Virus record (IMG/VR): IMGVR_UViG_3300026549_001031
DNA length: 64,000 nucleotides
Direction: 5' to 3' (one strand)
Origin: a virus
Taxonomy: Duplodnaviria > Heunggongvirae > Uroviricota > Caudoviricetes
Part shown: positions 6,039-24,162 of the stretch, in pieces
How positions within the stretch are numbered: position 1 is the stretch's first letter
Layout of the letters: each line of letters opens with the position of its first letter
Notes under the pieces: generated by a model
The model's database searches: none
What the model saw: only the letters and a program-made list of their open reading frames with translations
What the model was told of the DNA's origin: nothing
Program-made: the position numbers and the translations under genes

Positions 6039-6067
6039 TTGACAAAATAATTTCTTGGTATTATAAT
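6039..6067 (+). promoter_or_regulatory. sigma-A promoter of the NAD salvage operon
   Basis: TTGACA-17-TATAAT after terminator 5982-6020. Confidence 0.8.
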
Positions 6068-6092
6068 AATATGTATAAGGAGAGAGGAAATC

Positions 6093-6929: not shown

Positions 6930-6947
6930 TCATAGGAGGATAAAAAG

Positions 6948-7535
6948 ATGTTAAAGAGTAGAATTTTAGTAGTCATTGATATGCAAAATGACTTCTTAAC
7001 TGGTCCATTAGGTTGCATGGAACCTGAAAGAGTTTGTAACAAGGTATTAAAGCGGCTGAACAGTGGAAAATACGATAAGGTCTTTGCTACAAGAGATACA
7101 CATTATCAGAATACATATGCATCTACGATGGAGGGCAAAAAGCTTCCTGTTTTACATTGTGTGCAGAGTACAGATGGTTGGTGCATTGAGAAAAGAATTC
7201 AGGAGGCGCTGGATAAGCTGGCAGCATCTGATGAGTTTAAGGTGAGTATCATCAACAAGGAAACATTTGGTAGTCTTGACCTTGCATATCAGATTAAGAA
7301 TTGGACTAATAGAGAGTGCTTAGATGAAGATGACCTGATCATTGATATTTGTGGAGTGTTTACAGATATCTGCGTGATTAGCAATGCAACTTTGATTAAG
7401 GCAGCTGTGCCTAATGCAACCATTAGAATTATTTCTAATGCATGTTCATGTGGCAGTGAGGAGGATCAGGAGAGAGCACTTAAGAGTATGGAGAAAATGC
7501 ACATGGACATATTGTATCCTGTGACAATGCAGTAG
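6948..7535 (+). CDS. pncA: nicotinamidase / isochorismatase family
   Basis: VIDMQNDF, DTH, HC, KETFGS, GVFTDICV; next to pncB. Confidence 0.85.
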   Translation: MLKSRILVVIDMQNDFLTGPLGCMEPERVCNKVLKRLNSGKYDKVFATRDTHYQNTYASTMEGKKLPVLHCVQSTDGWCIEKRIQEALDKLAASDEFKVSIINKETFGSLDLAYQIKNWTNRECLDEDDLIIDICGVFTDICVISNATLIKAAVPNATIRIISNACSCGSEEDQERALKSMEKMHMDILYPVTMQ

Positions 7536-7556
7536 TTATTAAGAGAGGACATAGAA

Positions 7557-8321
7557 ATGACAAAGCCTGACATGATAAAAGAACTTAAGGTTTATGGTGC
7601 TGATGATAAAAGCATCAAGATCATTTTAAGACGTGGAGAACCTACATATAAGTTTAACGTTGGGGACATGGTTAAGCATGGTGGGTTTGCAGAGACAGTA
7701 GTGAAGGACCAGTTATGTAATGGAATGGCTTACATTGTAGAATGTAAGACAGATAAGGGAGAAAGGGTAGAGCATCTGGTTCCTTGGACAGAAGTAAGAA
7801 AATTAGAGAGAAGCAGTGAAATTATCTCAACTAACAATGATGTTGATTTACTGTTTCACCCTAAGGACTTAACAGAACTTATTGGAACTTACTACTACAG
7901 TTTTGGTATTGATACTGATCCTGAATATCAGAGAGGTTACGTGTGGAACGAGGCAGATAGAGAAGAGCTGATGGACAGTGTGTTCAAGTCAATTGACATT
8001 GGTAAAATAGTGCTGGTAGACAAGGAACACGCAGGAGATACAGATGATTGGTATGAGATCCTGGATGGTAAGCAGCGGCTTTTAACACTTGTTGCATACT
8101 TTGAAGATAGATTCCCTTATAAAGGCTTGTACTACAGTGATCTTTGTAGGGAGGACAAGAGAAAGTTCGACAATACAAGTGTTTCAGTGGCAATTGTCAG
8201 AAACGCTAGTAAAGAATTGATATACAGATTGTTTATCATGCTCAACACGGCAGGAAAGTCAATGAGCAGCGAGGACATGGATAGAGCATTGAAACTTTAC
8301 AAAGAAAGCATTGAGAAATAG
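7557..8321 (+). CDS. DUF262 (ParB-like) domain protein
   Basis: PEYQRGYVW, ILDGKQRL, FIMLNTAG. Confidence 0.85.
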   Translation: MTKPDMIKELKVYGADDKSIKIILRRGEPTYKFNVGDMVKHGGFAETVVKDQLCNGMAYIVECKTDKGERVEHLVPWTEVRKLERSSEIISTNNDVDLLFHPKDLTELIGTYYYSFGIDTDPEYQRGYVWNEADREELMDSVFKSIDIGKIVLVDKEHAGDTDDWYEILDGKQRLLTLVAYFEDRFPYKGLYYSDLCREDKRKFDNTSVSVAIVRNASKELIYRLFIMLNTAGKSMSSEDMDRALKLYKESIEK

Positions 8322-8333
8322 GAGGATACAATT

Positions 8334-9551
8334 ATGAAATTAGCACAAATCATTAACAGTTTGTTAGAGACAGACATGTACAAATTCAGCATGGGGCAGG
8401 CAATTTATCATCAGTTTTCAGGATACAAGACAACCTGGACATTTAAGTGTCGTAACAAGGATGTGAAATTTACACCTGAAATGGTGCAGGAGATCAGAGA
8501 GCAGATCAAGGCATATTGTGGCTTAAGATTTACAGAGCCTGAACTTGAGTATCTGCATGGTATCAAGTGGCTTAAGGGATCGTATGTGGACTTCTTAAGA
8601 TTGTGGCAGCCTCGATTTGAGGACTTTACAATCACAGAGGATGGTCCTTGTGGTTTATCAATCGAAACATTTGGTACATGGTTGAATACCTCTATGTATG
8701 AGATTCCTACACTTGCAGTTGTAAATGAGGTATACTTCAGAATGTCAAAAGACTATGACAAGTTGATCAAGAGCTTTAAGGAAAAAATGGATGCCAAGTA
8801 TGAAATGCTGAAGAGCGGTCACTGGTACATTGGTACATTCAGTGAGTTTGGTCTGCGTCGTAGACTTTCAGCAGAGGCACAGGAGTATGCAATTGATAAG
8901 CTTTCTCATCTGAATGATACATTACATTGTTCATCAAAGTTCATTGGCACTTCAAATGTGTACCTTGCAAAGAAGTTTGGTTTAACACCTGTAGGAACGA
9001 TGGCACATGAGTGGATTATGTGTACTGGACAGGGAAATCATAAGCATAATCCTGCATATTCTAACTGGTATGCACTGGACGCTTGGGTTAAGGAGTATGG
9101 AGTATTAAATGGTATTGCATTAACAGATACAATCACCACTGATTGTTTCTTAAGAGACTTTCAGTTAACCTATGCAACACTGTTTAACGGAGTAAGACAT
9201 GACAGTGGAGACCCTGTAGAATGGGGAGAGAAAATGATTGAGCACTACAAGGCTCTTGGAATTGATCCTAAGACAAAGACACTTCTGTTCAGTGACAGCC
9301 TGAACTTTGAGAAGGCAGATAAACTTTACAGACGCTTCTGCAATGATACAAATGTAGCATTTGGAATTGGAACTTACATTTCAAATGACACCTGTGAAGA
9401 GCCTCTGAACATTGTGATGAAAGTTACACGTTGTAATGGAATGGACGTTGCAAAGATCTCTGATACAGTAGGTAAAGGCATGTGCAAGAATCAGGAATAC
9501 GTTGACTATCTGCAGAGATGCATCGACTGGAGAATGGACAACGATAAATAG
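8334..9551 (+). CDS. pncB: nicotinate phosphoribosyltransferase
   Basis: LETDMYKFSM, EFGLRRR, GTMAHE, RHDSGDP, FSDSL, FGIGT, AKISD. Confidence 0.95.
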   Translation: MKLAQIINSLLETDMYKFSMGQAIYHQFSGYKTTWTFKCRNKDVKFTPEMVQEIREQIKAYCGLRFTEPELEYLHGIKWLKGSYVDFLRLWQPRFEDFTITEDGPCGLSIETFGTWLNTSMYEIPTLAVVNEVYFRMSKDYDKLIKSFKEKMDAKYEMLKSGHWYIGTFSEFGLRRRLSAEAQEYAIDKLSHLNDTLHCSSKFIGTSNVYLAKKFGLTPVGTMAHEWIMCTGQGNHKHNPAYSNWYALDAWVKEYGVLNGIALTDTITTDCFLRDFQLTYATLFNGVRHDSGDPVEWGEKMIEHYKALGIDPKTKTLLFSDSLNFEKADKLYRRFCNDTNVAFGIGTYISNDTCEEPLNIVMKVTRCNGMDVAKISDTVGKGMCKNQEYVDYLQRCIDWRMDNDK

Positions 9552-9627
9552 AAAACAACAAAAGCAGTTGGAAGTAGAGCATACACCAGTTTCTAATAGG
9601 GCTGGTGTATGTTTAGTTGGGGGGACA

Positions 9628-10221
9628 ATGGAGATGGAGAACAAACTTACTAAACTTGAAAAAGTGCAAGGTGGAAAATTTCTTAACTTGTACAATTTAG
9701 AGTATACACGTGAAGATGGCAGTAAGAAAATCTATGAGACAGTAAGTAGAAAATCAGATCTTACACTTGATGATATGCAAGACAGTTCAATAGTTGCACA
9801 GGCAGTAGGAATGATAATGTTTAATCATGACATGAGTAAGATTATGCTTCAGCAGGAGTTCAGGATGGCAATGAACAAATGGGTGTATAACTTCCCAGGT
9901 GGTTTAATTGACAGCGGAGAAGATGCAGAGCAAGCAGCAACAAGAGAACTCTGGGAGGAGACAGGGTTGCATTTGGACAAGGTGATTGCACATTTACCTG
10001 TGACTTATACATCAGTTGGAATTAGTAATGAGACATCTGAGACAATTGTAGGTACAGCAAGTGGAGAGTTCAAGGCAAGTACATCAGTGGATGAGCAGAT
10101 CAAACCTGGTTGGTACAGTAAGGAAGATGTTAAGGCACTTCTTGAGAAGAAAGTACCAATGAGTATGAGAACAATGTCAGTGCTTTGGATGTGGGTCAGC
10201 ATGGACACATTGAAAGCATAA
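9628..10221 (+). CDS. Nudix hydrolase (ADP-ribose pyrophosphatase-like)
   Basis: QEFR, FPGGLIDSGEDAEQAATRELWEETGL. Confidence 0.85.
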   Translation: MEMENKLTKLEKVQGGKFLNLYNLEYTREDGSKKIYETVSRKSDLTLDDMQDSSIVAQAVGMIMFNHDMSKIMLQQEFRMAMNKWVYNFPGGLIDSGEDAEQAATRELWEETGLHLDKVIAHLPVTYTSVGISNETSETIVGTASGEFKASTSVDEQIKPGWYSKEDVKALLEKKVPMSMRTMSVLWMWVSMDTLKA

Positions 10222-10257
10222 CATAAAAAGAAAATAGGTTGAGTGGAGGTGGACATT

Positions 10258-10473
10258 ATGGGAATAAAGATGTTCATGGTAAAAGTTGTAACAGACAATG
10301 GGTATAACTGGGTGGCACATAAAGTCATTGTACGGGCAGACAATGAGGAACAGGCAGTAGCAAAGGCACATAAGAGTTTTGAGGGAAAACTTAAATTTGA
10401 TTGCTATGTACTTAAGGATAAAACAGAGTGCATAGAGATTGAATTTGATGAGCATGATTGTTACTATGTTTAA
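10258..10473 (+). CDS. hypothetical protein
   Basis: GGAGG RBS; terminator follows. Confidence 0.6.
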   Translation: MGIKMFMVKVVTDNGYNWVAHKVIVRADNEEQAVAKAHKSFEGKLKFDCYVLKDKTECIEIEFDEHDCYYV

Positions 10474-10563
10474 TATGATAGGGCATATATCATTTGATGT
10501 ATGTCCTATTTTTATGCTTTAATATAAAAAAGAAATAAATTTATTTTTATTTTGGAGGAAAGA

Positions 10564-11418
10564 ATGGAAACGTACACACGCTTTGATTTTGAGCGAGAAG
10601 TCTTTGGTATGGATGTTGTAGACTTACTAGAGATATTAGATTATAAAAAGAACATCATATTGCAAGGGGCACCTGGTGTAGGTAAGACATATACTGCAAA
10701 AAGATTAGCCTATGCAAAGCTTGGATACATTGATAAGGATAGAGTGGTGCAGGTACAATTTCATCAGAACTATACATACGATGACTTTGTCATTGGTTTA
10801 AGACCTACAGAGGATGGTGGTTTTAGGTTTGAGCATGGACCTTTTTACAATATCTGTAAAAAAGCAGAGTCAGACTTTGAACATAAACCTTACTTCATAG
10901 TAATTGATGAGATCAACAGAGCAAATATGAGTAAGGTACTTGGTGAGGGCTTTTCACTTATTGAGAAAGATCATAGAAATGAACCTATTCTACTTAAGTA
11001 TGGTAATGAGGAGTTCAGTGTTCCTGATAACTTATACATTATTGGGACAATGAATACAGCTGATAGAGGCTTGGTAATGCTTGATTATGCATTAAGACGA
11101 AGATTTGCATTCATTACAGTTGATCCTCAATACAAGTCAGAGGGATTTAGACAGATAATGTATCAGTCAAACAACATTAAGTTTAATAGGATAGCAAAGA
11201 AAATAATTGAGTTAAATAAAGAGATCAGTAATGATGATATGCTAGGACCTGGTTTTCAGATTGGTCACTCATATTTTTGTTTGGGTAGACCTGTAACAGA
11301 TGATGATTTGAATTGTATAATTACATTCGAGATAATGCCTCTACTTAATGAATATTGGTATGACTCACCAGATAAAGTGAGTAAGTGGGAAGATACCTTC
11401 AGGGCAATACTTGGATAG
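10564..11418 (+). CDS. mcrB: McrB-family AAA+ GTPase lacking an N-terminal DNA-binding domain
   Basis: GAPGVGKT, VQFHQNYTY, IDEINRAN, GTMNTADR, LRRRF, IGHSYF. Confidence 0.88.
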   Translation: METYTRFDFEREVFGMDVVDLLEILDYKKNIILQGAPGVGKTYTAKRLAYAKLGYIDKDRVVQVQFHQNYTYDDFVIGLRPTEDGGFRFEHGPFYNICKKAESDFEHKPYFIVIDEINRANMSKVLGEGFSLIEKDHRNEPILLKYGNEEFSVPDNLYIIGTMNTADRGLVMLDYALRRRFAFITVDPQYKSEGFRQIMYQSNNIKFNRIAKKIIELNKEISNDDMLGPGFQIGHSYFCLGRPVTDDDLNCIITFEIMPLLNEYWYDSPDKVSKWEDTFRAILG

Positions 11419-11435
11419 CATTGGGAGAGTTAAAA

Positions 11436-11840
11436 ATGACATATGAAATTAAGAAAGAAAAGAAATTGAAAATGAGTGGAATACATAGTGAGAATAAGAT
11501 ATGCATGTACTTATTGAGTTTATTTGCAATTGGAGTTATGCTTAGCCTGCTTGGAATAAACATTGACAAACAGTTAAAGACATTCAATGGAGTTGGAATA
11601 CTTGTAAGTGCAAGTTTAATAGTTATAGTAAATACAGTACACAAAGAGAGAAAAGCATTGGGATATAAAGAAAAATGCATTGAATATGGTGATACTGATG
11701 TATTAAATGCAATGTTACTTTTTGTGGGACTTATGTCAATACATAATAGAGTCACTTGTGAGATTATAGTGATATGTAATTTGGTGTTTGAACAGTTGTT
11801 AAGGAGATTGAACTTTGGCAGTAAGAAAACAGCAGAATAG
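11436..11840 (+). CDS. hypothetical membrane protein
   Basis: Several hydrophobic segments; sits between mcrB and mcrC. Confidence 0.6.
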   Translation: MTYEIKKEKKLKMSGIHSENKICMYLLSLFAIGVMLSLLGINIDKQLKTFNGVGILVSASLIVIVNTVHKERKALGYKEKCIEYGDTDVLNAMLLFVGLMSIHNRVTCEIIVICNLVFEQLLRRLNFGSKKTAE

Positions 11841-12912
11841 AGAAATTGAAAATGCATTTAATATGTTATGTTACTTATATGATGAGATAAAAGGTAGAAA
11901 ATTTAAGACATTTACGTTAGATGGAATAAACAATTTAGATAGTTTATATGCAGCGATTGTTTCAAGATGGTGTGCAGCATTAGCAAAGCAAGGGCTTTAT
12001 AAGGAATATGTAGTACAGGAAAATGAAGAATTAACATCACCGAAAGGTCAGATAAACATTCAGGAATCAATTACAAGACAGACAAGATCAAGAGGAACAT
12101 TGATTTGTAGTTATGATGAGTTAAGTGAAGATATTTATATAAATCATATATTAAAAGGCACGTTACAGTATTTATTATTTAACAGCAATGTAGATGAAAA
12201 AGTGAAAGTTGAAGTTAAAAAAGCATTACAGATGTTTAATGGTGTAGGATACGTTGATATTAACTTAATACATTGGAAAACAATTAAGTATAACAATAAT
12301 AATATGACTTACAAGCATTTGATTGAATTATGTAAAACAATGTTGGATGAACAGAAAGCATGTAAGAATGGAATATTAACAGATGATCAGAGAATGTACA
12401 TATTGTTTAAGAAACAGATTAGAAAATGGTTCAGAGAGACATATAGTGATGAAGATAATACAGTAGAAATAGTTGATGCACCTTATGAGAGAATGGAGGA
12501 TGAGCCTGAATTTGAATTAAAAACGAGCAAGTCACAGAGAATGATAGCAATAAGAAATGATAGATGTGCATTGTTAATATGTGTTAGGTTGCAAGATGAA
12601 AAATTACAGCAAGACAGTACATTAGGACGTAGACATGCAGAGGAATTAGTAAGACATTGTAGAGATTATAAAGATACATACAGAGTTAAGGTATTTGGCT
12701 GTATAGTTTATGTGAATATAGACAAGAGGAAATTGAATTTGCAGCCTATTACAGTGAATGCATTTAATGATTACATGATTGGTGAGACAACAGTTGATAT
12801 TTATGATCAGTGGAGGTTTGTAGAGAACAAGTTAAAAGATTGTTATAAATATTTCATTGAGCGTGAGAACAATAGAGCACACAAGGTAAATAATAAGAAA
12901 ATCAGGAAATAA
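11815..12912 (+). CDS. mcrC: McrC-like protein with degenerate nuclease motif
   Basis: NAFNMLCY, KGQINIQESI, CSYDELSEDIYINHILKGTL; no clear D...DAK in the C-terminal half. Confidence 0.7.
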   Translation: MAVRKQQNREIENAFNMLCYLYDEIKGRKFKTFTLDGINNLDSLYAAIVSRWCAALAKQGLYKEYVVQENEELTSPKGQINIQESITRQTRSRGTLICSYDELSEDIYINHILKGTLQYLLFNSNVDEKVKVEVKKALQMFNGVGYVDINLIHWKTIKYNNNNMTYKHLIELCKTMLDEQKACKNGILTDDQRMYILFKKQIRKWFRETYSDEDNTVEIVDAPYERMEDEPEFELKTSKSQRMIAIRNDRCALLICVRLQDEKLQQDSTLGRRHAEELVRHCRDYKDTYRVKVFGCIVYVNIDKRKLNLQPITVNAFNDYMIGETTVDIYDQWRFVENKLKDCYKYFIERENNRAHKVNNKKIRK

Positions 12913-13017
12913 AATGACAGATGCATACAAAAGATAAAGAAGTAATAAGAAAAGTTTTGATATAAGGACATGGTTTAATTGATATGTCCTTATATTTTTA
13001 CAGAGTTTAGCATAGGT

Positions 13018-13046
13018 TTGATATTTTCAATAAAATGTGATATAAT
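13018..13046 (+). promoter_or_regulatory. conserved promoter class
   Basis: TTGATATTTTCAATAAAATGTGATATAAT. Confidence 0.75.
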
Positions 13047-13067
13047 AAGTATAAAGGAGGACTTTAT

Positions 13068-14273
13068 ATGGAAAAGCAAGAAAGATGTAGATTGACATTG
13101 CAAGAAAAGCAACGGGCAATGGAAAAAACAGGTGGGCGTTGTGCTCATTGTGGTAAGAAAATCAGTATTCAGGAAATGACAGTGGAACACATTCATCCGA
13201 TCAGTAAGGGAGGGGATAACTCAGAATATAATATAACGGTGCTTTGTGAAGATTGCAATACTCGTAAGAGTAATTTTATGTACAGACCTTCAGATTATTA
13301 CAAGTACATAAAGCAGGAGTATATGCCTTTGTATTTGATAAGTTCACTTAAGTTTAGGAATGAGTACATTAAAGATGGAAGAAATGATCTTGATTTCTTG
13401 GTGTATGATGCAGTGTCTTATTCATACTTACCCTTTGAGAAATTTATGATGGTACGTAATACAGCAAAGCGTGACAAGAGGAAGGGAGCAGACCTAATTG
13501 AAAAAGTGAGTGTCAAGGTAAAATTGGAGTATGCATATCCTGGTGATGCAGAGAGAATTTTAGAGTACATTAACAAAATGTATGAGAAGCATGGTGTAGA
13601 CAGATTGATTTATGATAACGAGTATACAATACTCAATGCAATTAAGACAGGTAAGGTGTTAATGTTGACACGTGCTAATGAGACATTATGTGGTTTATTC
13701 ATACTTGACAATTTTGAGGGCGTACAGGTCGAGAATTGCCAGTTTAACAATATTATTGAGTCAACGACATTAAGACAAGAGTACATTATGACTTATTGTT
13801 TCTCATCTGTTGAGGATACTAGACTGTTTAATGATGTGATGGTAGACATTATAAACTTTTTGGTAAACACTAAGATTTTTCCTGTGATGTTTGGATATTT
13901 GTCAGAGTGTTATGCAGGAGAGTCACAATACATAGACATACCTTACAACTACAAGGGTTGTGATGGACAATTACAGTTCTTTACAATTAAGGGCATCAGG
14001 TCAGTATTGAGAGAGACAGTTGACAACTTAGTTAAGGTAGGGTTTATGACAGACGAAGATGCAAGTAACATTATTGAAAAACAGATATACTCAGAGATTG
14101 GAGAAAGTACACAGGAATATATTAGGTTACTCACTGAAAAATGTAAATTAAACACTAAAGAGATGGAGGCAATTGGAGTAGACGAGAATGGTGCAACTAT
14201 AGAGAAAGCAGATACTGAGAAGAAGGACATGGATACGGAAAAGACAGGCATAAGAAAGGCAGTAGAGGCATGA
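13068..14273 (+). CDS. HNH endonuclease domain protein
   Basis: CAHCG...TVEHIHPISKGGDNSEYNITVLCEDCNTRK. Confidence 0.85.
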   Translation: MEKQERCRLTLQEKQRAMEKTGGRCAHCGKKISIQEMTVEHIHPISKGGDNSEYNITVLCEDCNTRKSNFMYRPSDYYKYIKQEYMPLYLISSLKFRNEYIKDGRNDLDFLVYDAVSYSYLPFEKFMMVRNTAKRDKRKGADLIEKVSVKVKLEYAYPGDAERILEYINKMYEKHGVDRLIYDNEYTILNAIKTGKVLMLTRANETLCGLFILDNFEGVQVENCQFNNIIESTTLRQEYIMTYCFSSVEDTRLFNDVMVDIINFLVNTKIFPVMFGYLSECYAGESQYIDIPYNYKGCDGQLQFFTIKGIRSVLRETVDNLVKVGFMTDEDASNIIEKQIYSEIGESTQEYIRLLTEKCKLNTKEMEAIGVDENGATIEKADTEKKDMDTEKTGIRKAVEA

Positions 14274-15104: not shown

Positions 15105-15133
15105 TTGACAGAGTGGAATTTATATGGTAAGAT
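15105..15133 (+). promoter_or_regulatory. sigma-A promoter of tRNA cluster 2
   Basis: TTGACA-17-TAAGAT. Confidence 0.7.
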
Positions 15134-15177
15134 AGATATATGTTAAGGGAAAGGAAAACATATTAAGAAAGAAATAT

Positions 15178-15257
15178 CCCCGTCAAGTTTTCAATGGGAA
15201 AACACTGTTAGTAAGCGCGCTACAGAGATGTTAGGTTCGATCCCTAAGGCGTGGGGC
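15178..15257 (+). ncRNA. tRNA-like RNA with extended, bulged anticodon arm
   Basis: D arm GTTTT/AAAAC, T arm TTAGG-TTCGATC-CCTAA, acceptor CCCCGTC/GGCGTGGGG; anticodon arm CTGT(T)AGT-AAGCGC-GCT-ACAG has no 7-nt loop. Confidence 0.6.
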
Positions 15258-15295
15258 TAGTCAGTTTAGTTAATAGACTGGCATTAAAAGAATAA

Positions 15296-15368
15296 TCCTT
15301 CATAGCTCAGTAGGTAGAGCGCCTGACTGTTAATCAGGTTGTCGCAGGTTCGAGCCCTGCTGGAGGAG
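15296..15368 (+). tRNA. tRNA-Asn(GTT)
   Basis: CCTGA-CTGTTAA-TCAGG, canonical cloverleaf. Confidence 0.92.
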
Positions 15369-15568
15369 CTTTTAAACATTGATATTAAATCAATGGTGCA
15401 TGAGGTAGTTTCTGACTTGGCAAGAGAAAAGTGGAATGAATTAAGAGGTGACCAGCTTGTGAAAAATGTTAAGACATCACAAGTAGCAGATAGAATCGTT
15501 AGTGAGTTATCAGACAGAATAGTTCATGATTTGACGATTAAGGTTTATAGTAGTAATTAAGAAGATAT

Positions 15569-15641
15569 GGGTCATTAGCTCAGTTGGGAGAGCACGTGAC
15601 TTTTAATCACGGGGTCATGGGTTCAAATCCCATATGGCTCA
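15569..15641 (+). tRNA. tRNA-Lys(TTT)
   Basis: CGTGA-CTTTTAA-TCACG, canonical cloverleaf. Confidence 0.92.
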
Positions 15642-15682
15642 TTGATAGGCTTCACAACCATTAAAATTAAGATAAGGTGTAT

Positions 15683-15816
15683 GACTGCTGAGAGAGCATT
15701 TGTATTTTTAGGTATAGGCAGTCGAGAGGTTCAGTAGAGAAGAGTATCTTGCCTAACAATTGTGTTAGGAGATCGCAAGTAGTAACGCGCCGCCTGGACC
15801 GCAGAGAAAAATACAA
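15683..15816 (+). ncRNA. candidate structured RNA in tRNA spacer
   Basis: Helices GACTGC/GCAGTC, TTGTATTTTT/AAAAATACAA, GGTTCAG/CTGGACC, CCTAACA/TGTTAGG. Confidence 0.45.
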
Positions 15817-15824
15817 TTTAATAT

Positions 15825-15898
15825 GGACCATTAGCTCAGCTGGTTAGAGCAGTCGGCTCATAACCGATCGGTCCGGGGTTCGAGTCCCTGATGGTCCA
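15825..15898 (+). tRNA. tRNA with CAT anticodon (Ile2-type body)
   Basis: GTCGG-CTCATAA-CCGAT; GGACCAT...ATGGTCCA resembles Firmicute tRNA-Ile2. Confidence 0.88.
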
Positions 15899-15903
15899 CT
15901 ACA

Positions 15904-16022
15904 TTCTATGTGAGGTTATTGACGGTGGTCAATGCTAAAGTTCCTTAAAGGTTTCTGCTGTAACAGGTGGAGTAATATTAAACACGTGGTTTCGTGTGTT
16001 CAACCATGCGACTTACATAGAG
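15904..16022 (+). ncRNA. candidate multibranch structured RNA
   Basis: Closing stem TTCTATGTGAG/CTTACATAGAG enclosing three hairpins. Confidence 0.5.
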
Positions 16023-16063
16023 GGTAACAAGGGCATTAATACTAATGCCCTTAACAATGAAAA

Positions 16064-16147
16064 CGCTGCATGTCCGGGTGGTGAGGGAGCGGTCTTGAAA
16101 ACCGTTGGATGTAACAGTCTTGCAGGTTCAAATCCTGTGTGCAGCGC
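16064..16147 (+). tRNA. tRNA-Ser(TGA)
   Basis: GCGGT-CTTGAAA-ACCGT, long variable arm, acceptor CGCTGCA/TGCAGCG. Confidence 0.82.
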
Positions 16148-16177
16148 TAGCATGTTTAATCATGCAAAATAGAATAT

Positions 16178-16265
16178 GTAGTTGTACTCAAGAGGTTTAA
16201 GAGGATCCCCTGCTAAGGGATTAGGTCAGTAAAATGATGCATGGGTTCGAATCCCATCAACTACG
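16178..16265 (+). tRNA. tRNA-Ser(GCT)
   Basis: ATCCC-CTGCTAA-GGGAT, long variable arm, acceptor GTAGTTG/CAACTAC. Confidence 0.88.
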
Positions 16266-16267
16266 CT

Positions 16268-16346
16268 AGGTGCTTTTGGTTCTTACAGCAATTTTTCAGG
16301 CATAGACTTTTAATCTATAAACCATACAGAATCATGTTTAGCACTT
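16268..16346 (+). ncRNA. TACAGCAAT-motif RNA 'A' carrying a tRNA-Lys(UUU) anticodon stem-loop
   Basis: Stem TGGTTCT/AGAATCA, TACAGCAAT 16284-16292, ATAGA-CTTTTAA-TCTAT 16302-16318; no D or T arm. Confidence 0.7.
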
Positions 16347-16351
16347 AAAAT

Positions 16352-16423
16352 GTGGGTATAGTACATCGGCTAGTACGCTAGTCTTCCACACTAGATAAAC
16401 GGGTTCGATTCCCGTTACCCACT
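16352..16423 (+). tRNA. tRNA-Gly(TCC)
   Basis: CTAGT-CTTCCAC-ACTAG; acceptor GTGGGTA/TACCCAC, U73. Confidence 0.88.
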
Positions 16424-16425
16424 TA

Positions 16426-16540
16426 ATAAATAATGGAGTACATGGGGTTGCCTGGCAGGGCTGAACGGTTCAACTCCGTCTCGAAGTGTGGTACACATAA
16501 GATATAAAAGCAGTTCAAGTCTGCTCGCTTCATTGTTTAT
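16426..16540 (+). ncRNA. tRNA-like RNA with two T-arm-like hairpins
   Basis: ACGG-TTCAACT-CCGT and AGCAG-TTCAAGT-CTGCT inside a closing stem ATAAATAATGGAGT/GCTTCATTGTTTAT. Confidence 0.55.
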
Positions 16541-16546
16541 TTAATA

Positions 16547-16630
16547 TCTCTTCATAGCTCAAGGGTGGAGTACCCGTCAGTTGATTAGATTCAATCGGGT
16601 GGTTGCAGGTTCGAGTCCTGCTGAAGGGAA
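16547..16630 (+). ncRNA. tRNA-Asn-like body with ~10-nt insertion in the anticodon arm
   Basis: Acceptor (T)CTCTTCA/TGAAGGG(A), D arm GCTC/GAGT, T arm GCAGG-TTCGAGT-CCTGC; anticodon arm CCCG-TCA-GTTGA-TTAGAT-TCAAT-CGGG. Confidence 0.65.
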
Positions 16631-16669
16631 TTCAAGCATCATATCAGATGATGTTTGAAAATTAAATAT

Positions 16670-16743
16670 GCCGACATAGCTCTAATTGGTAGAGCGAGAG
16701 CCTTGTAATCTCTAGGTTGTCAGTTCGAGTCTGACTGTCGGCT
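16670..16743 (+). tRNA. tRNA-Thr(TGT)
   Basis: AGAGC-CTTGTAA-TCTCT (one mismatch); acceptor GCCGACA/TGTCGGC. Confidence 0.85.
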
Positions 16744-16790
16744 CTCTTATCTCAGATCGCTCAATGAGATAAGAATCCTTTGTATAACTT

Positions 16791-16836
16791 AAAAGGTGCC
16801 ATGCATTACAATTTATGTGGTGTGTGGCACTTTTTA
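16791..16836 (+). terminator. terminator ending tRNA cluster 2
   Basis: AAAAGGTGCCATGCA...TGTGTGGCACTTTTT. Confidence 0.7.
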
Positions 16837-16918
16837 TGTTGTTATACATAGAAAATGTACATCTAAAATATAATAAGAGTATTTTATTTTTTAATTTATG
16901 TTTGGAGGAAAAGAGCGA

Positions 16919-17305
16919 GTGTACATTGAGAAAAATTTGAATCCTAGTGGAAAAAAGACTTCAGACTGTGCTATTAGGGCGGTTGCAGCTGCTACTGATC
17001 AGTCATGGGATAAAGTTTATATGGACTTAGCTAACACAGGTTTTCAACTTAAGAAGGAAATGAGTGACGTTGATACAGTAGATAGGTACTTAACTAGTTT
17101 AGGGTTCATCACAGGTAAGATTAAGGTGGCTAAGGGGCAGCATAGACCGACAGTAGAGGGCTTTGCTAGAAATAATCCTGACAAGGTAGCAGTATTGAGA
17201 GTAGCAAACCATTTAACATGTTGTGCATATGGAAATTATGTAGACATATGGGATTGTGGAGACTGTTCTGTTTATAAATACTGGTACAAGGAGTTAAGGG
17301 GGTAA
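16919..17305 (+). CDS. conserved phage protein (NPxGK..DCxIRA motif; possibly papain-like)
   Basis: GGAGG RBS before GTG; Cys, His (NHL) and Asp (DIWD) in protease-like order. Confidence 0.6.
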   Translation: MYIEKNLNPSGKKTSDCAIRAVAAATDQSWDKVYMDLANTGFQLKKEMSDVDTVDRYLTSLGFITGKIKVAKGQHRPTVEGFARNNPDKVAVLRVANHLTCCAYGNYVDIWDCGDCSVYKYWYKELRG

Positions 17306-17714: not shown

Positions 17715-18524
17715 ATGGTAGATGCACGTAGAGTAGGATACAGACTTGCTGAAAGAATTGCCGCTAACTTAAATGCATTAAGCAGTCATGGAAAGGACGA
17801 CCTGCTTGGAAATGTAGTTGCAGTGCTTAAGAGAACAGATTATGGACTTGGTTCACCTGAAGAGGGCAACAGTGCATATTATGTGATCTTCAATGACAGT
17901 GCATTAGCATGCAACTCAATGCAGCGTTTTGGTGCTAAAAGATTTGACGATGACATTGTGTTTGTAAGTGTAAGTGAATTCGTCGATAAGGTAATGCATT
18001 GTGACTTCACATACTTGCAGCTGATGAACAGAAGTGAGATCATATATCAAACTGAGGCATATGATAATTTAGTTGATGAGGTCATTGGAGTTATGAATGG
18101 GGTTAAGTATGCTGAAGATCAGATACTGTTTAGCAGATTCATGATTTCAAAATTAGCAGGGCTTTGCTACGGGGTTAAGAGCAACCTTGATAAAGAGAGC
18201 AACCTTGATAAAAAAGGTGAACTTACAAACAATGTAAAATACATGGTGCAGTCAGCATTGTATAGTCTTGACAGAACATATGTAAACAGAAGGGTATCAC
18301 TGGCAATTGGAAAGGATACACTTATTGATAAGCAGTTTGGTTGTGGCGAGATCAAAACAAAGCAGGACTTAAAGCAGCTTTTAGAGGCAGTGCTTAAAGA
18401 TTATGAGGACGTTATTAAAACCTCGAATGAATACATTGGGAATGTGGAAAACATTAGAACACTGCATATTAAAGTGGCAAATACCCTTGTATTTTATTAT
18501 GAAGATGTCTTAAGAAAAAGTTAA
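17715..18524 (+). CDS. hypothetical protein, possibly an inactive Pol-beta nucleotidyltransferase paralog
   Basis: DYGLGSPEEGNSAYYVIF...FVDKVMHCDFTYLQLM loosely parallels 19508 but lacks DxD. Confidence 0.45.
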   Translation: MVDARRVGYRLAERIAANLNALSSHGKDDLLGNVVAVLKRTDYGLGSPEEGNSAYYVIFNDSALACNSMQRFGAKRFDDDIVFVSVSEFVDKVMHCDFTYLQLMNRSEIIYQTEAYDNLVDEVIGVMNGVKYAEDQILFSRFMISKLAGLCYGVKSNLDKESNLDKKGELTNNVKYMVQSALYSLDRTYVNRRVSLAIGKDTLIDKQFGCGEIKTKQDLKQLLEAVLKDYEDVIKTSNEYIGNVENIRTLHIKVANTLVFYYEDVLRKS

Positions 18525-18543
18525 AAACAGGGGTGGTAGAAAA

Positions 18544-19518
18544 GTGTTAACAGCTAACTTAAATAAAAGGTTCTGTAGGGATACAGGAACAAGCATTGCA
18601 GTGTTTATTGATCCTTATTTTTCAGAGAGAATCAAGTTGCTTGGACTTGAGGAAAAGTACATGGACTTTGAGAAAATGATCAATGAACAGTTTGGAGGAA
18701 TTGAACAACAGTACTTTGAGTATTGTGAACAGGTAGAAAAAGAGGTTCTAGCATTTCTAAAAGATAGTGAGTCACTAAAAAGTTTGCAGACTTGTGATAT
18801 GAGCAAGTATAAAAATACTTTTAGCATTCCTAGTGGAAATGTTTACAAGGGTGACAACATTGGTAAAAAGTACATAAGCATTGATATGGCTAAAGCAAAC
18901 TTCAGTGCATTAGTTCACTACGAGAAAGAAATTGGAATGGACAGTGCAGAAAAGAGTTTTGGACAGTTATGCGGATATGATTACAATAAGTTTATTGATC
19001 ACTTCACAGATAATAAGTTTGTTGCAGAGTCAAAATATGTGAGACAGTACATTTTTGGTCACTGCTGTTCAAAGAGAGTTGTCAACTATGAAAAATGGAT
19101 TATGGGTACAGTAATGGATAAGTTACCTGCCAGTGCAGTAAATAAGGTAGTTACATTGAATAATGATGAAATCATTATTGATGCAGGGGACTTAACATTA
19201 GAAGAGGTAAATGGTCTTAGAATATTAGTTGAACAGCTTTCAGAAGAAATTGTACCATTACATTTTGAATACTTTACACTGAAAGGTTTCTATGGCACAG
19301 AGCAGAAAGTGTTTATGAAGCAGTTCATTGATGAGAATGGACAGCAGAATGGGTACAAGTTAGCATGTAATAATTCAATTGATACAGTGTTCATTGAGAA
19401 GTATTTGCATGGAATTGAAATTACAGACAATGACTTGGTGTTCAACTGTCAGTATGGTTTAGCAAAATTGCTTAAAGTTCCAGAAGCATACACGAAAGGA
19501 ATCAAAAATGTTCAATGA
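18544..19518 (+). CDS. conserved phage protein with polymerase-palm-like motifs
   Basis: ISIDMAKANFSAL, SKYVRQYIFG, LNNDEIII. Confidence 0.55.
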   Translation: MLTANLNKRFCRDTGTSIAVFIDPYFSERIKLLGLEEKYMDFEKMINEQFGGIEQQYFEYCEQVEKEVLAFLKDSESLKSLQTCDMSKYKNTFSIPSGNVYKGDNIGKKYISIDMAKANFSALVHYEKEIGMDSAEKSFGQLCGYDYNKFIDHFTDNKFVAESKYVRQYIFGHCCSKRVVNYEKWIMGTVMDKLPASAVNKVVTLNNDEIIIDAGDLTLEEVNGLRILVEQLSEEIVPLHFEYFTLKGFYGTEQKVFMKQFIDENGQQNGYKLACNNSIDTVFIEKYLHGIEITDNDLVFNCQYGLAKLLKVPEAYTKGIKNVQ

Positions 19519-20569
19519 GAAATACAGAGAGTTGCTTGAGGGAAGTGAGTATGACTTCTTAAGAGAACACAATAGACTTGGTAAAAAATTAATGATGCTT
19601 GTGGTAAGTGGTAGTAAGGCACATGGAACTGATACACCTACTAGTGATACAGACATTAGGGGTGTGATGGGCAACAGTGTGAATGAACTTGTGAAAGTTG
19701 AAAAAGACTTTGGTACTTTCATTGAAAAAGACACTGATACTTGTATTCATACATTTGATAAAACCTGTGATCTTATGCTATCGTGTAACCCTTCAATCAT
19801 GGAAATGTTTGGATGCAGGGATGAAGAAATCATCTATTATGATAAGCATGGAAAAATGCTGATGGACAATTATGATAAGTTCTTAAGCATTAGGGCAGTG
19901 AGCAGCTTTGGTGGATTTGCTAATGCACAGTTTAACAGAATGAAGCACAGCTTAATTGCAAATGGGCAGAATCCTGATGCAGAGTTAGAAATGCTCAAGC
20001 ATAGTTTAGAAAATGCAATGACAGCGTTTAATGCAACTCATCAGGGAACAGCAATTGATGTACAGATCAGAATGGTAAGTGATCAGGAATTAAAGAGAAT
20101 TCATCCTGAAATTAAGACAACAAGCGAATATGACAAACATCACATTTTAGTTAATGGACACTTTAATGAAGCAGATGTCACTGATTTTAAGACAGTAATT
20201 AGTGAGTTACACAAGATTCAAAGTGAGTATGGCAAGTTGAATAAAGAGAATACAAAGAAAACAGATATTAAGCTTGCTAAACATATGATGGACCTGGTTT
20301 ATATTTACCTTGTTGGGGCAGATCTGAACAGTGGAAAAGGAATGATTACTTACAGAGAAAAAGAGCATGACATGCTGATGGATATTAGGAACATGAAGTA
20401 TTTAACACCAGATGGGTTGAAAGTAAAATCTGACTTCTATGATTTGCTGAATGACATTGAAAAAGAATATATGTATACAGCTAAAAATTGTGTATTACCT
20501 GAGAAACCTGACTATGAGGCAATCAGTGATATGAAAAGACAGGTTTATTTAGATATGCTAGCAGGATAG
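19508..20569 (+). CDS. Pol-beta superfamily nucleotidyltransferase (RlaP/Nuc-transf-like)
   Basis: VSGSKAHGTDTPTSDTDIRGV...CNPSIMEMF...LPEKPD. Confidence 0.85.
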   Translation: MFNEKYRELLEGSEYDFLREHNRLGKKLMMLVVSGSKAHGTDTPTSDTDIRGVMGNSVNELVKVEKDFGTFIEKDTDTCIHTFDKTCDLMLSCNPSIMEMFGCRDEEIIYYDKHGKMLMDNYDKFLSIRAVSSFGGFANAQFNRMKHSLIANGQNPDAELEMLKHSLENAMTAFNATHQGTAIDVQIRMVSDQELKRIHPEIKTTSEYDKHHILVNGHFNEADVTDFKTVISELHKIQSEYGKLNKENTKKTDIKLAKHMMDLVYIYLVGADLNSGKGMITYREKEHDMLMDIRNMKYLTPDGLKVKSDFYDLLNDIEKEYMYTAKNCVLPEKPDYEAISDMKRQVYLDMLAG

Positions 20570-22158: not shown

Positions 22159-22229
22159 AAATATTGTTGAGAGGTAAGGAAGTAAAGCAACAAGTTGTTT
22201 GAGGATTCTTACTTCGAAACATTGAAACT

Positions 22230-22287
22230 GGTGTACTTACAGCAATCTTTTATAAAACATTTCAGGGTAAAGTTTTTATAGTACACT
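22230..22287 (+). ncRNA. TACAGCAAT-motif RNA 'B'
   Basis: Stem GGTGTACT/AGTACACT; TACAGCAAT 22238-22246; inner hairpin TATAAAAC/GTTTTTATA. Confidence 0.7.
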
Positions 22288-22299
22288 GTAGTTAAGTTT

Positions 22300-22354
22300 G
22301 AGGTGCCTACAGCAATTTTTAAATCACATTAGGCATGTATGAAATGTGCACCTT
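22300..22354 (+). ncRNA. TACAGCAAT-motif RNA 'C'
   Basis: Stem GAGGTGC/GCACCTT; TACAGCAAT 22308-22316; ends 6 nt before the AGGAGG RBS. Confidence 0.7.
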
Positions 22355-22374
22355 GTAAACAGGAGGAAAACAAA

Positions 22375-23859
22375 ATGGGTTTAGGATCAGCAATCAGAGA
22401 AGAGGCGTCATGGGGAAAAACGACCAATGGTGCAGATGCAAGGGTAGCAACTGGCAGTGCTTTGCTTGATATGTTTGGACGTGCAGGAGCAATGCGTGGA
22501 GCAGATGAGATTGATAAGCAGATTATGATCTCACAGGCATTCAAGGAAAATGCAGACTTCGCAGTGAAGTTATTGTTCTACACGAGAGATGTTCGTGAGG
22601 GCTATGGTGAAAGAGATACCTTCCATACCATGTTAAGATGGCTTGCATTTGAATCAAAAGAGTCAGTGGAGAAAAATCTCTGGGCAATTCTGGAGTTTGG
22701 AAGAGCAAGTGACCTTTATGCACTTGTTGGAACACCTGCAGAGGATGCAATGTGGGAGTTTATGAGAAATCAGTTCGAACTCGACTACAAAAACATGCAG
22801 GCAGGTAAGAGTATTTCACTACTTGCAAAATGGATGGCTTCGCCTAATTCAAGAACAGCTAAGAAAAAGCAGCTTGGTAAACTGACAGCTAAGGCACTTG
22901 GCTACTCATACAAAAATATGAGAGAGCTTAAGCAGAAAATCAGTGCAATGCGTAAATACCTTGATCTGCCTGAAGTAAAAATGGCAGCAGGCAAGTGGGG
23001 CGAGATTGAGTACAGTACTTGCGCATCGAAAGCACTTCTGTATCACAAGAATGCATTTGCAAGACATGATATGCAGAGATGGCAGGAATACCTGGAGTCA
23101 GTTAACAAGGGCGAAGAGAAGATGAATACAGGCACTTTGACACCTTGTGACATTGTTGCAAAATACAATGACCTGTCTAATGTAGACAAGGCATTGGAGA
23201 CAATGTGGGATAACCTTGAGGATGTAAACGATGGCAATGTGCTTGTAATGGCAGATACATCAGGTTCAATGTTCCACAATCATTTTGGAGGATTAAGACC
23301 TATTTACGTGTCAGTTGCATTGGCAATTTACTTTGCTAAGCATAACAAGGGAGACCTCAAAAACTTGTTTATGACATTTGAGAGTAATCCTCACTTCATT
23401 GAAATTAAGGAGGCTTCACTGTTTGATACAATTCATGCAGTAAAAAAGGCAGAATGGGGCAATAGTACAAACCTTGTGAAAGCATTTGATAAATTGCTTG
23501 AGGTCTGTGTTAAAGGTGGTGTGTCACAGGAAGATATGCCTAAAGCAATCCTTGTTGTTTCTGATATGCAGATCAATTCAGCATCAAGTGCTTGTGATGG
23601 GGAGGGTCGTATCAGTTTCTTTGAAAGCATGTCTAAGAAATATGAGAAGGCAGGATACAAAATGCCACAGCTTGTATTTTGGAATGTAAATGCAAAGAGA
23701 GCAACATTCCATGCATCAAAAGATGATGCAGGAGCATCCCTTGTAAGTGGATTTTCAGTGAATGTGTTTAAGCAGGTCATCGAATGTATTGGTTCTACAC
23801 CATACGAGTTGATGATGAGCATTCTTGAATCCGAGAGATACAAGGACATTGTTGCATAA
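22375..23859 (+). CDS. DUF2828-family protein (TROVE/Ro60-like helical region plus vWA domain)
   Basis: TTNGA, LLFYTRDVREGYGER, SLLAKWM, vWA MIDAS DTSGSM, WGNSTNL, VVSDMQ, LVFWNV, LVSGFS. Confidence 0.85.
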   Translation: MGLGSAIREEASWGKTTNGADARVATGSALLDMFGRAGAMRGADEIDKQIMISQAFKENADFAVKLLFYTRDVREGYGERDTFHTMLRWLAFESKESVEKNLWAILEFGRASDLYALVGTPAEDAMWEFMRNQFELDYKNMQAGKSISLLAKWMASPNSRTAKKKQLGKLTAKALGYSYKNMRELKQKISAMRKYLDLPEVKMAAGKWGEIEYSTCASKALLYHKNAFARHDMQRWQEYLESVNKGEEKMNTGTLTPCDIVAKYNDLSNVDKALETMWDNLEDVNDGNVLVMADTSGSMFHNHFGGLRPIYVSVALAIYFAKHNKGDLKNLFMTFESNPHFIEIKEASLFDTIHAVKKAEWGNSTNLVKAFDKLLEVCVKGGVSQEDMPKAILVVSDMQINSASSACDGEGRISFFESMSKKYEKAGYKMPQLVFWNVNAKRATFHASKDDAGASLVSGFSVNVFKQVIECIGSTPYELMMSILESERYKDIVA

Positions 23860-23944: not shown

Positions 23945-24078
23945 GACGATGTAGCTCAGCTGGTAGAGCACCTGGAATATATTTTTGTGATTCATGTTGT
24001 TTATCTGTGAATCCTACAGCAATCATTTTTAAATGTTGGCAGCCAGGGGGGTCATAGGTTCGAATCCTATCATCGTCA
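23945..24078 (+). ncRNA. TACAGCAAT-motif RNA 'D': full tRNA body with a 67-nt insert replacing the anticodon loop (permuted Y-RNA/YrlA-like)
   Basis: Acceptor GACGATG/CATCGTC-A, D arm GCTC-AGCTGGTA-GAGC, stem CCTGG/CCAGG, T arm ATAGG-TTCGAAT-CCTAT; insert holds GATTCAT/GTGAATC plus CTACAGCAAT. Confidence 0.8.
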
Positions 24079-24162
24079 CTGACATGCATAGTAGTGCATG
24101 CATGTCATTGTCCTTAGTTTTTGTGCAGTGATTTTGTAGGATAAAGTCGTTGCAGTGATCCA

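What the first reader, a model, noticed from the sequence alone, without database searches (positions are those of the whole stretch)
16547..16630. tRNA-Asn-like gene with a ~10-nt insertion just 3' of the GTT
Seen: the body closely resembles tRNA-Asn at 15296. Deleting GATTAGATTC gives CCCGT-CAGTTAA-TCGGG, a 7-nt GTT loop, though with A33 and a T/T mismatch. The insert pairs with the GTT, as in pre-tRNA introns near position 37/38. Inference: either a micro-intron that RtcB could seal after cleavage, or an anticodon-masked mimic.
Basis: partly seen in the sequence, partly recalled or inferred. Interest (0 to 1): 0.6.

Follow-up and report, generated by a model that had tools for sequence, protein, structure and literature searches.

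The report
Anticodon-less tRNA look-alike in phage
A cattle-gut phage carries a gene that folds like an asparagine tRNA but has a closed hairpin where the anticodon loop should be, so it is more likely a non-decoding tRNA mimic or a decaying copy than a tRNA with a tiny intron.

Summary
Window 16548-16629 (+) is a tRNA-shaped gene (Rfam tRNA 43.2 bits, cut-off 29). Acceptor, D and T arms are intact, but 19 nt sit where the 7-nt anticodon loop belongs. The window's tRNA-Asn is its closest paralogue (58 identities, one 10-nt gap after GTT). The loop folds into a 3-nt bulge, a 5-bp helix and a 6-nt loop, so no anticodon is displayed.

The micro-intron reading is weak:
- There is no bulge-helix-bulge motif.
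- No splicing endonuclease was recognised in the window.
- The GTT product would keep A33 and a U-U mismatch.
- No joint was seen; contigs from one RNA library show the unspliced form only.

The body looks constrained: three pair-preserving double changes against tRNA-Asn, and a compensatory T-stem change in a strain variant. No homologue was found beyond about 2% divergence. The inner helix is no more stable than shuffled loops.

Best reading (0.4): a processed, non-decoding tRNA mimic in a phage rich in RNA-repair genes (Ro60-like, RtcB, RlaP, CCA enzyme). A decaying pseudogene is the main rival.

In passing: a second interrupted tRNA gene (23945-24079) belongs to a widespread, covarying family linked to Ro60-like genes. 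That deserves its own follow-up.

The parts
16548..16554 (+). acceptor stem, 5' strand (pairs with 16622-16628; 7 of 7 pairs, one G-U)
   Evidence: Rfam alignment, fold, ARAGORN drawing
16557..16571 (+). D arm: 4-bp stem (one G-U) and a 7-nt loop with the GG pair; preceded by T8 and A9
16572..16576 (+). position 26 plus the 5' strand of the outer anticodon stem (CCCG); pairs with 16596-16599(16600)
16577..16579 (+). 3-nt bulge (TCA) on the 5' side of the arm
   Evidence: minimum-energy fold
16580..16595 (+). inner helix GTTGA/TCAAT closed by the 6-nt loop TTAGAT. The GTT lies in the 5' strand. The helix sequence is one that ordinary tRNA-Lys and tRNA-Asn genes use as an anticodon stem.
   Evidence: alignment with tRNA-Asn; sequence
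16578..16589 (+). ARAGORN's alternative 12-nt 'intron'; removing it would leave a canonical-looking loop with anticodon TCA
16596..16604 (+). 3' strand of the outer anticodon stem (CGGG) and the 5-nt variable loop; T48 with A15 keeps the 15-48 tertiary pair
16605..16621 (+). T arm: 5-bp stem and loop TTCGAGT. Pair 16606-16620 is C-G here and T-A in variant X16.
16622..16629 (+). acceptor stem 3' strand and discriminator A; no CCA is encoded
15105..15133 (+). promoter-like site upstream of the tRNA cluster (10 of 12 consensus matches, with TG)
   Evidence: a consensus match only
16790..16836 (+). terminator-like hairpin after the last tRNA of the cluster
   Evidence: 7 terminator-like sites found against 1.4 expected

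Best explanation
The gene encodes a non-decoding, tRNA-shaped RNA derived from a tRNA-Asn-type gene.

Inferred steps:
- It is co-transcribed with the eight ordinary tRNAs of the cluster at 15296-16744.
- It is cut out like a tRNA by RNase P and RNase Z, which read the acceptor/T-arm and elbow.
- It is given CCA by a CCA-adding enzyme; the phage encodes one.

Shown by the sequence: its anticodon arm is a closed helix of about 10 bp with a 3-nt bulge and a 6-nt loop. It therefore offers no 7-nt anticodon loop.

From established knowledge: without that loop it cannot read a codon. It also lacks the Asn identity elements (anticodon and G73, as recalled for E. coli AsnRS).

Most likely role (inferred): a tRNA mimic in the phage's conflict over tRNA damage. 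It would act as a decoy or ligand for proteins that bind the tRNA body, such as a host tRNA-targeting nuclease or the phage's own Ro60-like, RtcB, RlaP and CCA repair set.
For: - The tRNA body is intact and scores above the Rfam cut-off (43.2 against 29).
- No anticodon loop is displayed. Two ARAGORN modes give different anticodons.
- Against its closest paralogue, tRNA-Asn, three pairs differ on both sides yet stay paired: 1-72 T-A to C-G, 29-41 T-A to C-G, and tertiary 15-48 G-C to A-T. Three more differ on one side and stay paired. This is read.
- Strain variant X16 carries 16606 C>T together with 16620 G>A, the two partners of one T-stem pair. These are two of its three changes within the gene span (the third, 16630, lies just 3' of the discriminator). 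It has nine changes over 526 nt.
- The gene sits inside a unit bounded by a promoter-like and a terminator-like site.
- The window encodes a Ro60-fold protein. Its AlphaFold model has pLDDT 87.5, and the 13 best PDB matches are all Ro60/TROVE, with E from 2.6e-9 to 7e-5. It also encodes RlaP, a CCA-adding enzyme and an intein-bearing RtcB.
- Other tRNA-shaped RNAs with altered anticodon arms occur in this window and in related phage contigs.
Against: - No homologue was found beyond strain variants about 1-2% apart, so the arm's conservation is untested.
- The inner helix is no more stable than shuffled loops: 1082 of 5000 fold at least as well.
- The insert is a tandem pentamer, which looks like a replication slip.
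- The gene lacks the hairpin and ACAGCAAT motif that marks the RNAs linked to Ro60-like genes.
- It lies 5.7 kb from the Ro60-like gene.
- Variant X15 has 16548 C>A, which would break pair 1-72. That contig has depth 4.5, so it may be an error.
- The only RNA-library evidence is an uninterrupted contig, which could come from DNA.
Confidence: 0.4

Rival explanations
1. It is a decaying pseudogene: a redundant duplicate of the phage tRNA-Asn that lost its anticodon loop to a slipped 10-nt insertion and now has no function.
For: - A canonical tRNA-Asn(GTT) already exists at 15296.
- The insert is two tandem pentamers.
- It has A33, a T/T at 31-39, G in place of A21, and A73 instead of the G73 of the Asn gene.
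- The inner helix is not beyond chance.
- The gene is a singleton in every collection searched.
Against: - All four stems of the body are fully paired.
- Three double changes against tRNA-Asn preserve pairing.
- One compensatory T-stem change separates strains.
- The tertiary pair 15-48 covaries.
- These changes may predate the insertion, so they do not exclude recent death.
Confidence: 0.28
2. It is a cis-acting processing signal. Only its RNase P and RNase Z recognition surface matters, to release the neighbouring structured RNA (16424-16546) and tRNA-Thr from the polycistronic transcript. The anticodon arm is then free to drift.
For: - The body is constrained but the anticodon arm is aberrant.
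- It directly abuts a strongly folded non-tRNA RNA at 16424-16546, with z -3.23 and 0 of 200 shuffles as stable.
- The cluster looks like one transcription unit.
Against: Nothing tests it directly. Ordinary tRNAs in the cluster could serve the same purpose. No processing sites could be read, because only contigs were available.
Confidence: 0.15
3. It is a pre-tRNA with a micro-intron. A nuclease cuts the arm twice and RtcB joins the halves, giving tRNA-Asn(GUU) or a UGA-reading tRNA(UCA) (ARAGORN's version, 12 nt removed).
For: - RtcB, RlaP and a CCA-adding enzyme are encoded in the window.
- Two of the 8 possible 12-nt deletions leave a loop with U33 and a purine at 37, both with anticodon TCA.
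- In the Ro60-linked family, removing one insert 5' of the loop restores a perfect anticodon arm in 23 of 30 representatives, against 2.3 expected from shuffles.
- Lak megaphages are reported to carry tRNAs with 'enigmatic introns' (PMC6784885, passages read).
Against: - There is no bulge-helix-bulge motif.
- No splicing endonuclease was recognised among the ORFs scanned.
- None of the 8 possible 10-nt deletions gives a canonical loop.
- The window shows no sign of TGA read as sense: TGA ends 9 of 64 long ORFs, and reading it as sense adds no more open frame than reading TAG or TAA so.
- The insert lacks the family's conserved hairpin.
- No joint was seen in the four runs laid.
Confidence: 0.09

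Closest known systems
YrlA-type bacterial and phage Y RNAs, the tRNA-like partners of Ro60 (Rfam RF02553; Chen et al. 2014, PMC4201824, abstract and passages read)
   Same: It is a non-decoding RNA with tRNA-like D and T arms, encoded in a genome that also encodes a Ro60-fold protein. The helix standing where the anticodon stem would be is lengthened and bulged.
   Different: - YrlA has its 5' and 3' ends in that helix and a closed 'acceptor'. This RNA has an open acceptor and a closed arm.
- The YrlA model does not match the gene. The only hit, 25.9 bits against a cut-off of 69, spans two adjacent genes.
- The gene is 5.7 kb from the Ro60-like gene.
- A YrlA-like RNA (39.8 bits, below the cut-off) lies 125 nt after the Ro-like gene of mycobacteriophage Silverleaf.
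Archaeal and eukaryal pre-tRNA introns with a bulge-helix-bulge motif, joined by RtcB (review PMC4090602, search listing only)
   Same: Extra nucleotides lie next to the anticodon, and an RtcB ligase gene is nearby.
   Different: There is no second bulge. The helix has 5 bp, not 4. No endonuclease was recognised. The spliced Asn loop would be non-canonical.
'Enigmatic' tRNA introns of Lak megaphages (Devoto et al. 2019, PMC6784885, passages read)
   Same: Both are phage tRNA genes from gut habitats that are longer than expected because of an insert in the anticodon region, with no known mechanism.
   Different: This window is about 40% G+C and reads in the standard code. Lak genomes are about 26% G+C and use an alternative code, per that paper. 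Sequences were not compared, and the supplementary tables were not read.
Family of tRNA genes with a 40-62-nt insert, linked to Ro60-like genes
   Same: Same phage, same idea: a complete tRNA frame with the anticodon arm interrupted.
   Different: The family insert carries a covarying hairpin (TCA-TGTTNG-TGR) and an ACAGCAAT motif, and leaves a 7-nt loop intact. The target has neither.

Membership tests
Canonical decoding tRNA | Cloverleaf body with a 7-bp acceptor stem, D and T arms and the conserved tertiary nucleotides | tested here: met
   RF00005 at 43.2 bits against a cut-off of 29. 7 of 7 acceptor pairs, 4 of 4 D-stem pairs and 5 of 5 T-stem pairs. T8, A14, GG in the D loop and T loop TTCGAGT are present.
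Canonical decoding tRNA | 5-bp anticodon stem closed by a 7-nt loop with U33 | tested here: not met
   19 nt between CCCG and CGGG fold into a bulge, a 5-bp helix and a 6-nt loop. ARAGORN gives Ser(tga) or SeC(tca) depending on the mode.
Pre-tRNA with a bulge-helix-bulge intron | Two 3-nt bulges on opposite strands, 4 bp apart | tested here: not met
   The fold has a single 3-nt bulge, a 5-bp helix and then a hairpin loop.
Pre-tRNA with a bulge-helix-bulge intron | A splicing endonuclease is available | tested here: inconclusive
   No such family was found among the window ORFs scanned. Several ORFs have no match at all (for example 26535-29948 and 17715-19518). The rest of the phage genome and the host are not held.
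Pre-tRNA with a bulge-helix-bulge intron | A 3'-phosphate RNA ligase (RtcB) is available | tested here: met
   PF01139 RtcB, E 5.5e-57, at 29969-31660, with intein signatures.
Pre-tRNA with a bulge-helix-bulge intron | A joined product exists | tested here: inconclusive
   No joint at the insert in 2 RNA-library and 2 DNA runs. RNA run X3 has an uninterrupted contig over 16070-16800. Contigs drop rare and very short RNAs.
Group I intron in a bacterial tRNA gene | A self-splicing intron of some 200 nt or more in the anticodon loop | tested here: not met
   The insert is 10-12 nt. No intron family matched in Rfam at E up to 10.
YrlA Y RNA | Match to RF02553, with the termini in the Ro-binding stem | tested here: not met
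   25.9 bits against 69, and the match runs from this gene's T arm into the next tRNA.
   Neither motif occurs in 16548-16630. The window's member is 23945-24079.
tRNA pseudogene | Loss of pairing and of conserved positions in the body | tested here: not met
   All body stems are paired, with pair-preserving changes against tRNA-Asn and between strains. Only the anticodon arm, A21 (here G) and position 33 deviate.

The most novel reading that the evidence does not exclude
The arm is a programmed cut-and-reseal site. A nuclease, from the host as an attack or from the phage, opens the bulged hairpin at two places. The phage RtcB then joins the halves. This would produce a working tRNA only during infection: either tRNA-Asn, or a UGA-reading tRNA from the 12-nt version that leaves a canonical loop. 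That would be a protein-spliced micro-intron in a bacterial virus, a kind of tRNA intron not known in bacteria or their phages.
Probability: 0.08. Interest if true: 0.85.

Novelty: new variant of a known kind. Interest (0 to 1): 0.4.

Why it matters
Phage tRNA clusters are usually read as codon-supply or as spare parts against host anticodon nucleases. A tRNA frame kept intact while its anticodon is closed off would be a molecule selected for its tRNA shape, not for decoding.

Here it sits in a phage that also carries a Ro60-fold protein, RtcB, RlaP and a CCA-adding enzyme. If it proves to be a decoy or a repair-complex ligand, it adds a simple, testable member to the small set of bacterial and phage tRNA mimics.

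On present evidence it is a singleton, and it may be a dead gene.

The larger prize lies beside it. The family of interrupted tRNA genes linked to Ro60-like genes looks like the RNA partner of a widespread phage Ro60 homologue.

Tried and rejected
**Searches for homologues of the target**
- blastn of 16300-16800 against the phage collection hit only the neighbouring Thr and Gly tRNAs.
- blastn of the gene alone at E up to 10 gave 1698 records. These were mostly T-arm matches. Only two covered 80% or more: a tRNA-Lys and a tRNA-Asn at 69-72% identity.
- Two exact or gapped patterns in viral contigs gave 0 hits.
- The D-arm 19-mer in metagenome contigs gave 3 hits, none a tRNA.
- Neighbour proteins 16898-17305 and 17715-18524 found no relatives in viral contigs.
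- The Ro60-like protein found one viral locus at 38% identity with no tRNA.
- A pattern built on the inner helix, run in viral and genome contigs, returned only ordinary tRNAs with 7-nt loops. There were 269 matches in 241 loci: Lys 133, Asn 52, Arg 26, Thr 25, Leu 15, Met 8, others 4, uncalled 6.

**Other checks that led nowhere**
- No whole genome is held for the window.
- Tsamsa-like Bacillus phages have a tRNA cluster directly upstream of their Ro-like gene. Their two 83-nt 'tRNA-OTHER' genes are ordinary class II Tyr and Leu.
- The 82-86-nt tRNA hits in five family contigs are mostly class II Ser, Tyr and Leu. One of them is the anticodon-less element noted in passing.
- TGA recoding is not supported in the window.
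- A first-drawn outer helix (P1) for the family insert was not supported.

**Sequencing runs**
- RNA run X17 has no contig over most of the target; its contig stops at 16553. I draw nothing from that gap.
- Habitat: 20 of the 24 runs listed hold the stretch, from 12 studies. Most carry a bovine gut metagenome label; a few do not, one low-share row being marine. Two may be the source of the window.

Full report
**What is there**

Window 16548-16629 (+) matches the Rfam tRNA model at 43.2 bits (cut-off 29, E 3.5e-7). The full model is aligned except in the anticodon arm, where a 4-bp stem (CCCG/CGGG) encloses 19 nt (same hit in the whole-window scan).

ARAGORN's default mode calls it tRNA-Ser(tga). 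With introns allowed it calls tRNA-SeC(tca) with a 12-nt intron at 16578-16589. The disagreement shows that no unambiguous anticodon exists.

The minimum-energy fold is a cloverleaf (-27.8 kcal/mol, z -2.18, 5 of 200 shuffles as good). Its anticodon arm reads:
- outer stem 16572-16576 with 16596-16600
- a 3-nt bulge at 16577-16579
- an inner 5-bp helix, 16580-16584 with 16591-16595
- a 6-nt loop at 16585-16590

**Relation to tRNA-Asn**

Of the 16 ordinary tRNAs in the window, tRNA-Asn (15296-15369) is the most similar. It shares 58 identities, against 53 for Lys, Ser(tga) and Thr. The 5' part matches at 23 of 29 and the 3' part at 28 of 35. There is one 10-nt gap directly after GTT.

Weak matches in the phage collection are to tRNA-Asn and tRNA-Lys genes.

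The statement that the insert pairs with the GTT is inexact. In the fold the GTT pairs with the AAT just 3' of the insert.

The insert is two tandem pentamers that differ at one base. That looks like replication slippage; this is my inference.

The inner helix sequence is one that ordinary tRNA-Lys and tRNA-Asn genes use as an anticodon stem. A pattern built on it found 269 matches in 241 fetched loci, all with 7-nt loops and none like the target.

**Is the body under constraint?**

Compared with tRNA-Asn, pairs 1-72 and 29-41 and the tertiary pair 15-48 differ on both sides and remain pairs. Pairs 2-71, 5-68 and 10-25 differ on one side and remain pairs (read).

The stretch occurs in 20 of the 24 public runs listed, from 12 studies, mostly labelled bovine gut. 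I laid two RNA-library runs and two DNA runs.
- DNA variant X16 differs at 9 places in 16275-16800. Three fall in the gene span: 16606 C>T and 16620 G>A, which are the two partners of one T-stem pair, and 16630 A>C.
- Variant X15 has 16548 C>A, which would break pair 1-72. That contig has depth 4.5.
- Neither variant changes the arm. At this divergence about half a change would be expected there, so that says nothing.

The inner helix is not more stable than chance: 1082 of 5000 shuffles of the 19 nt fold as well.

**Splicing**

- There is no bulge-helix-bulge motif.
- None of the 8 possible 10-nt deletions gives U33 with a purine at 37. Two of the 8 possible 12-nt deletions do, both with anticodon TCA.
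- The window shows no sign of TGA read as sense.
- No splicing endonuclease was recognised among the ORFs scanned, though several have no match at all.
- RNA-library run X3 has a contig identical to the window over 16070-16800. No run shows a joint at the insert. Contigs cannot exclude a short or rare joined RNA, and the RNA-library contig could come from DNA.

**Context**

The window looks like part of a large phage. No genome is held for it and it has no close relative among cultured phages.

The target lies in a cluster of nine tRNA-type genes, between a promoter-like site (15105-15133) and a terminator-like hairpin (16790-16836).

Downstream lie several RNA-repair genes:
- RlaP (19508-20569)
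- a DUF2828/DUF7788 protein (22339-23859)
- a CCA-adding enzyme (25114-26538)
- an intein-bearing RtcB (29969-31660)

The DUF2828 protein is annotated 'Ro-like' in some of the 695 phage records that hold a homologue. Its AlphaFold model was built from a 36-sequence alignment and has pLDDT 87.5 and pTM 0.87. Its 13 best PDB matches are all Ro60/TROVE structures, aligned over nearly their full length, with E from 2.6e-9 to 7e-5. They include the Thermus phage Ro60.

In mycobacteriophage Silverleaf a YrlA-like RNA (39.8 bits, below the cut-off of 69, E 1e-6) lies 125 nt after the homologous gene. This agrees with Chen et al. 2014 (PMC4201824, passages read).

**A second, much clearer case in the window**

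Window 23945-24078, 86 nt after the Ro60-like gene, is a tRNA frame (51.9 bits) with 67 nt in place of the loop.

Human-faecal phage scaffolds whose Ro-like protein is 42-45% identical carry four such genes next to that gene. The inserts share a hairpin (TCA-TGTTNG-TGR), a fixed 5-nt spacer and GCAA.

A Ro-like homologue lies within 3 kb in 73 of the 81 loci of 3 kb or more.

The hairpin covaries:
- 96.3% of cells are paired.
- 25 cells have changes on both sides, against 7.7 +/- 2.1 in shuffles (0 of 500 reach it).
- Slid controls give 27-47% paired.

In 23 of 30 representatives, removing one contiguous insert restores a perfect 5-bp stem with a 7-nt loop, against 2.3 expected from shuffles. 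In 14 of the 23 the loop has T33 and a purine at 37. I did not remove four sequences that may not belong to the family. The insert site varies from 26/27 to 31/32 and always lies 5' of the loop.

The target lacks this motif, so it is not a member.

Earlier AI notes from this scan describe similar things in other genomes. I treat them as leads only.

**Verdict**

The target is a real, tRNA-Asn-derived, anticodon-less tRNA frame.
- I favour a processed non-decoding mimic (0.4).
- A dead duplicate follows (0.28).
- A pure processing signal is third (0.15).
- A micro-intron is least likely (0.09).

The deciding data are the size of the RNA in infected cells and the state of the arm in relatives 5-20% diverged. 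I could obtain neither.

Noticed in passing
window 23945-24079 (+); relatives L006:1570-1691, L007:1195-1316, 1370-1489, 1494-1621, and L008-L114: A second interrupted tRNA gene lies 86 nt after the Ro60-like gene. It has a perfect tRNA frame with a 60-67-nt insert 5' of an intact-looking loop. It belongs to a family found in at least 107 viral contigs, often as 2-3 tandem copies. A Ro-like gene lies within 3 kb in 73 of 81 loci. The family has a covarying hairpin and an ACAGCAAT motif. Rfam matches these genes only as tRNA. It is either a tRNA-embedded Y-RNA-like module or a new kind of tRNA intron.
   Followed up: partly
window 16267-16351 (+): The spacer between tRNA-Ser(GCT) and tRNA-Gly carries the same two motifs in swapped order (ACAGCAAT at 16285, TCATGTT at 16332). 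They flank a 5-bp hairpin with a loop that looks like a Lys(TTT) anticodon loop, and the whole is closed by a terminal helix. This looks like a circularly permuted mini-version of the family module without a tRNA body.
   Followed up: partly
window 22229-22356 (+): Two more copies of the YTACAGCAAT motif (22239 and 22309), each beside a helix, lie in the leader of the Ro60-like gene. The second helix spans its start codon. This may be autoregulation by the protein binding a mimic of its RNA site. It is untested.
   Followed up: no
window 16424-16546 (+): A strongly folded non-tRNA RNA lies directly upstream of the target (z -3.23, 0 of 200 shuffles as stable). It has a long helix formed by its two ends, two T-arm-like hairpins and an unpaired CGAA. 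Variant X16 changes 16446 G>A and 16451 C>T, which fits pairing. It may be a Y-RNA-like RNA.
   Followed up: partly
window 15172-15270 (+): A perfect T-arm-like hairpin (about 15236-15252) with a possible acceptor stem around it, but no tRNA call by Rfam or ARAGORN. The fold is not better than shuffles (z -0.87).
   Followed up: partly
L042:753-841 and L119 (G005:C1:13667-13752): In contigs that carry the family, another tRNA frame has its anticodon arm replaced by a closed helix of 11-13 bp with a tetraloop. The two copies differ by three one-sided, pair-preserving changes. It is analogous to the target but not homologous.
   Followed up: partly
L006:3445-3513: A tRNA-like gene of 69 nt with a shortened anticodon stem lies 58 nt after the Ro-like gene of a human-faecal phage scaffold. 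Close copies occur in other loci.
   Followed up: no
window 29969-31660 (+): The RtcB gene is interrupted by an intein (Pfam Intein_splicing; NCBIfam N- and C-terminal intein regions).
   Followed up: no
window 16065-16147 (+): The tRNA-Ser(TGA) gene scores only 32.5 bits on the tRNA model and 41.4 bits on the tRNA-Sec model (cut-off 47). It is an unusual class II tRNA.
   Followed up: no
window 4744-14273 and 34080-56596: The phage-like window also carries NAD-salvage genes (NAPRTase, two Nudix, isochorismatase), McrBC-like and GmrSD-like genes, ClpX-like and ClpP genes, an NAD-dependent DNA ligase, a HipA-like kinase and a class A penicillin-binding protein.
   Followed up: no
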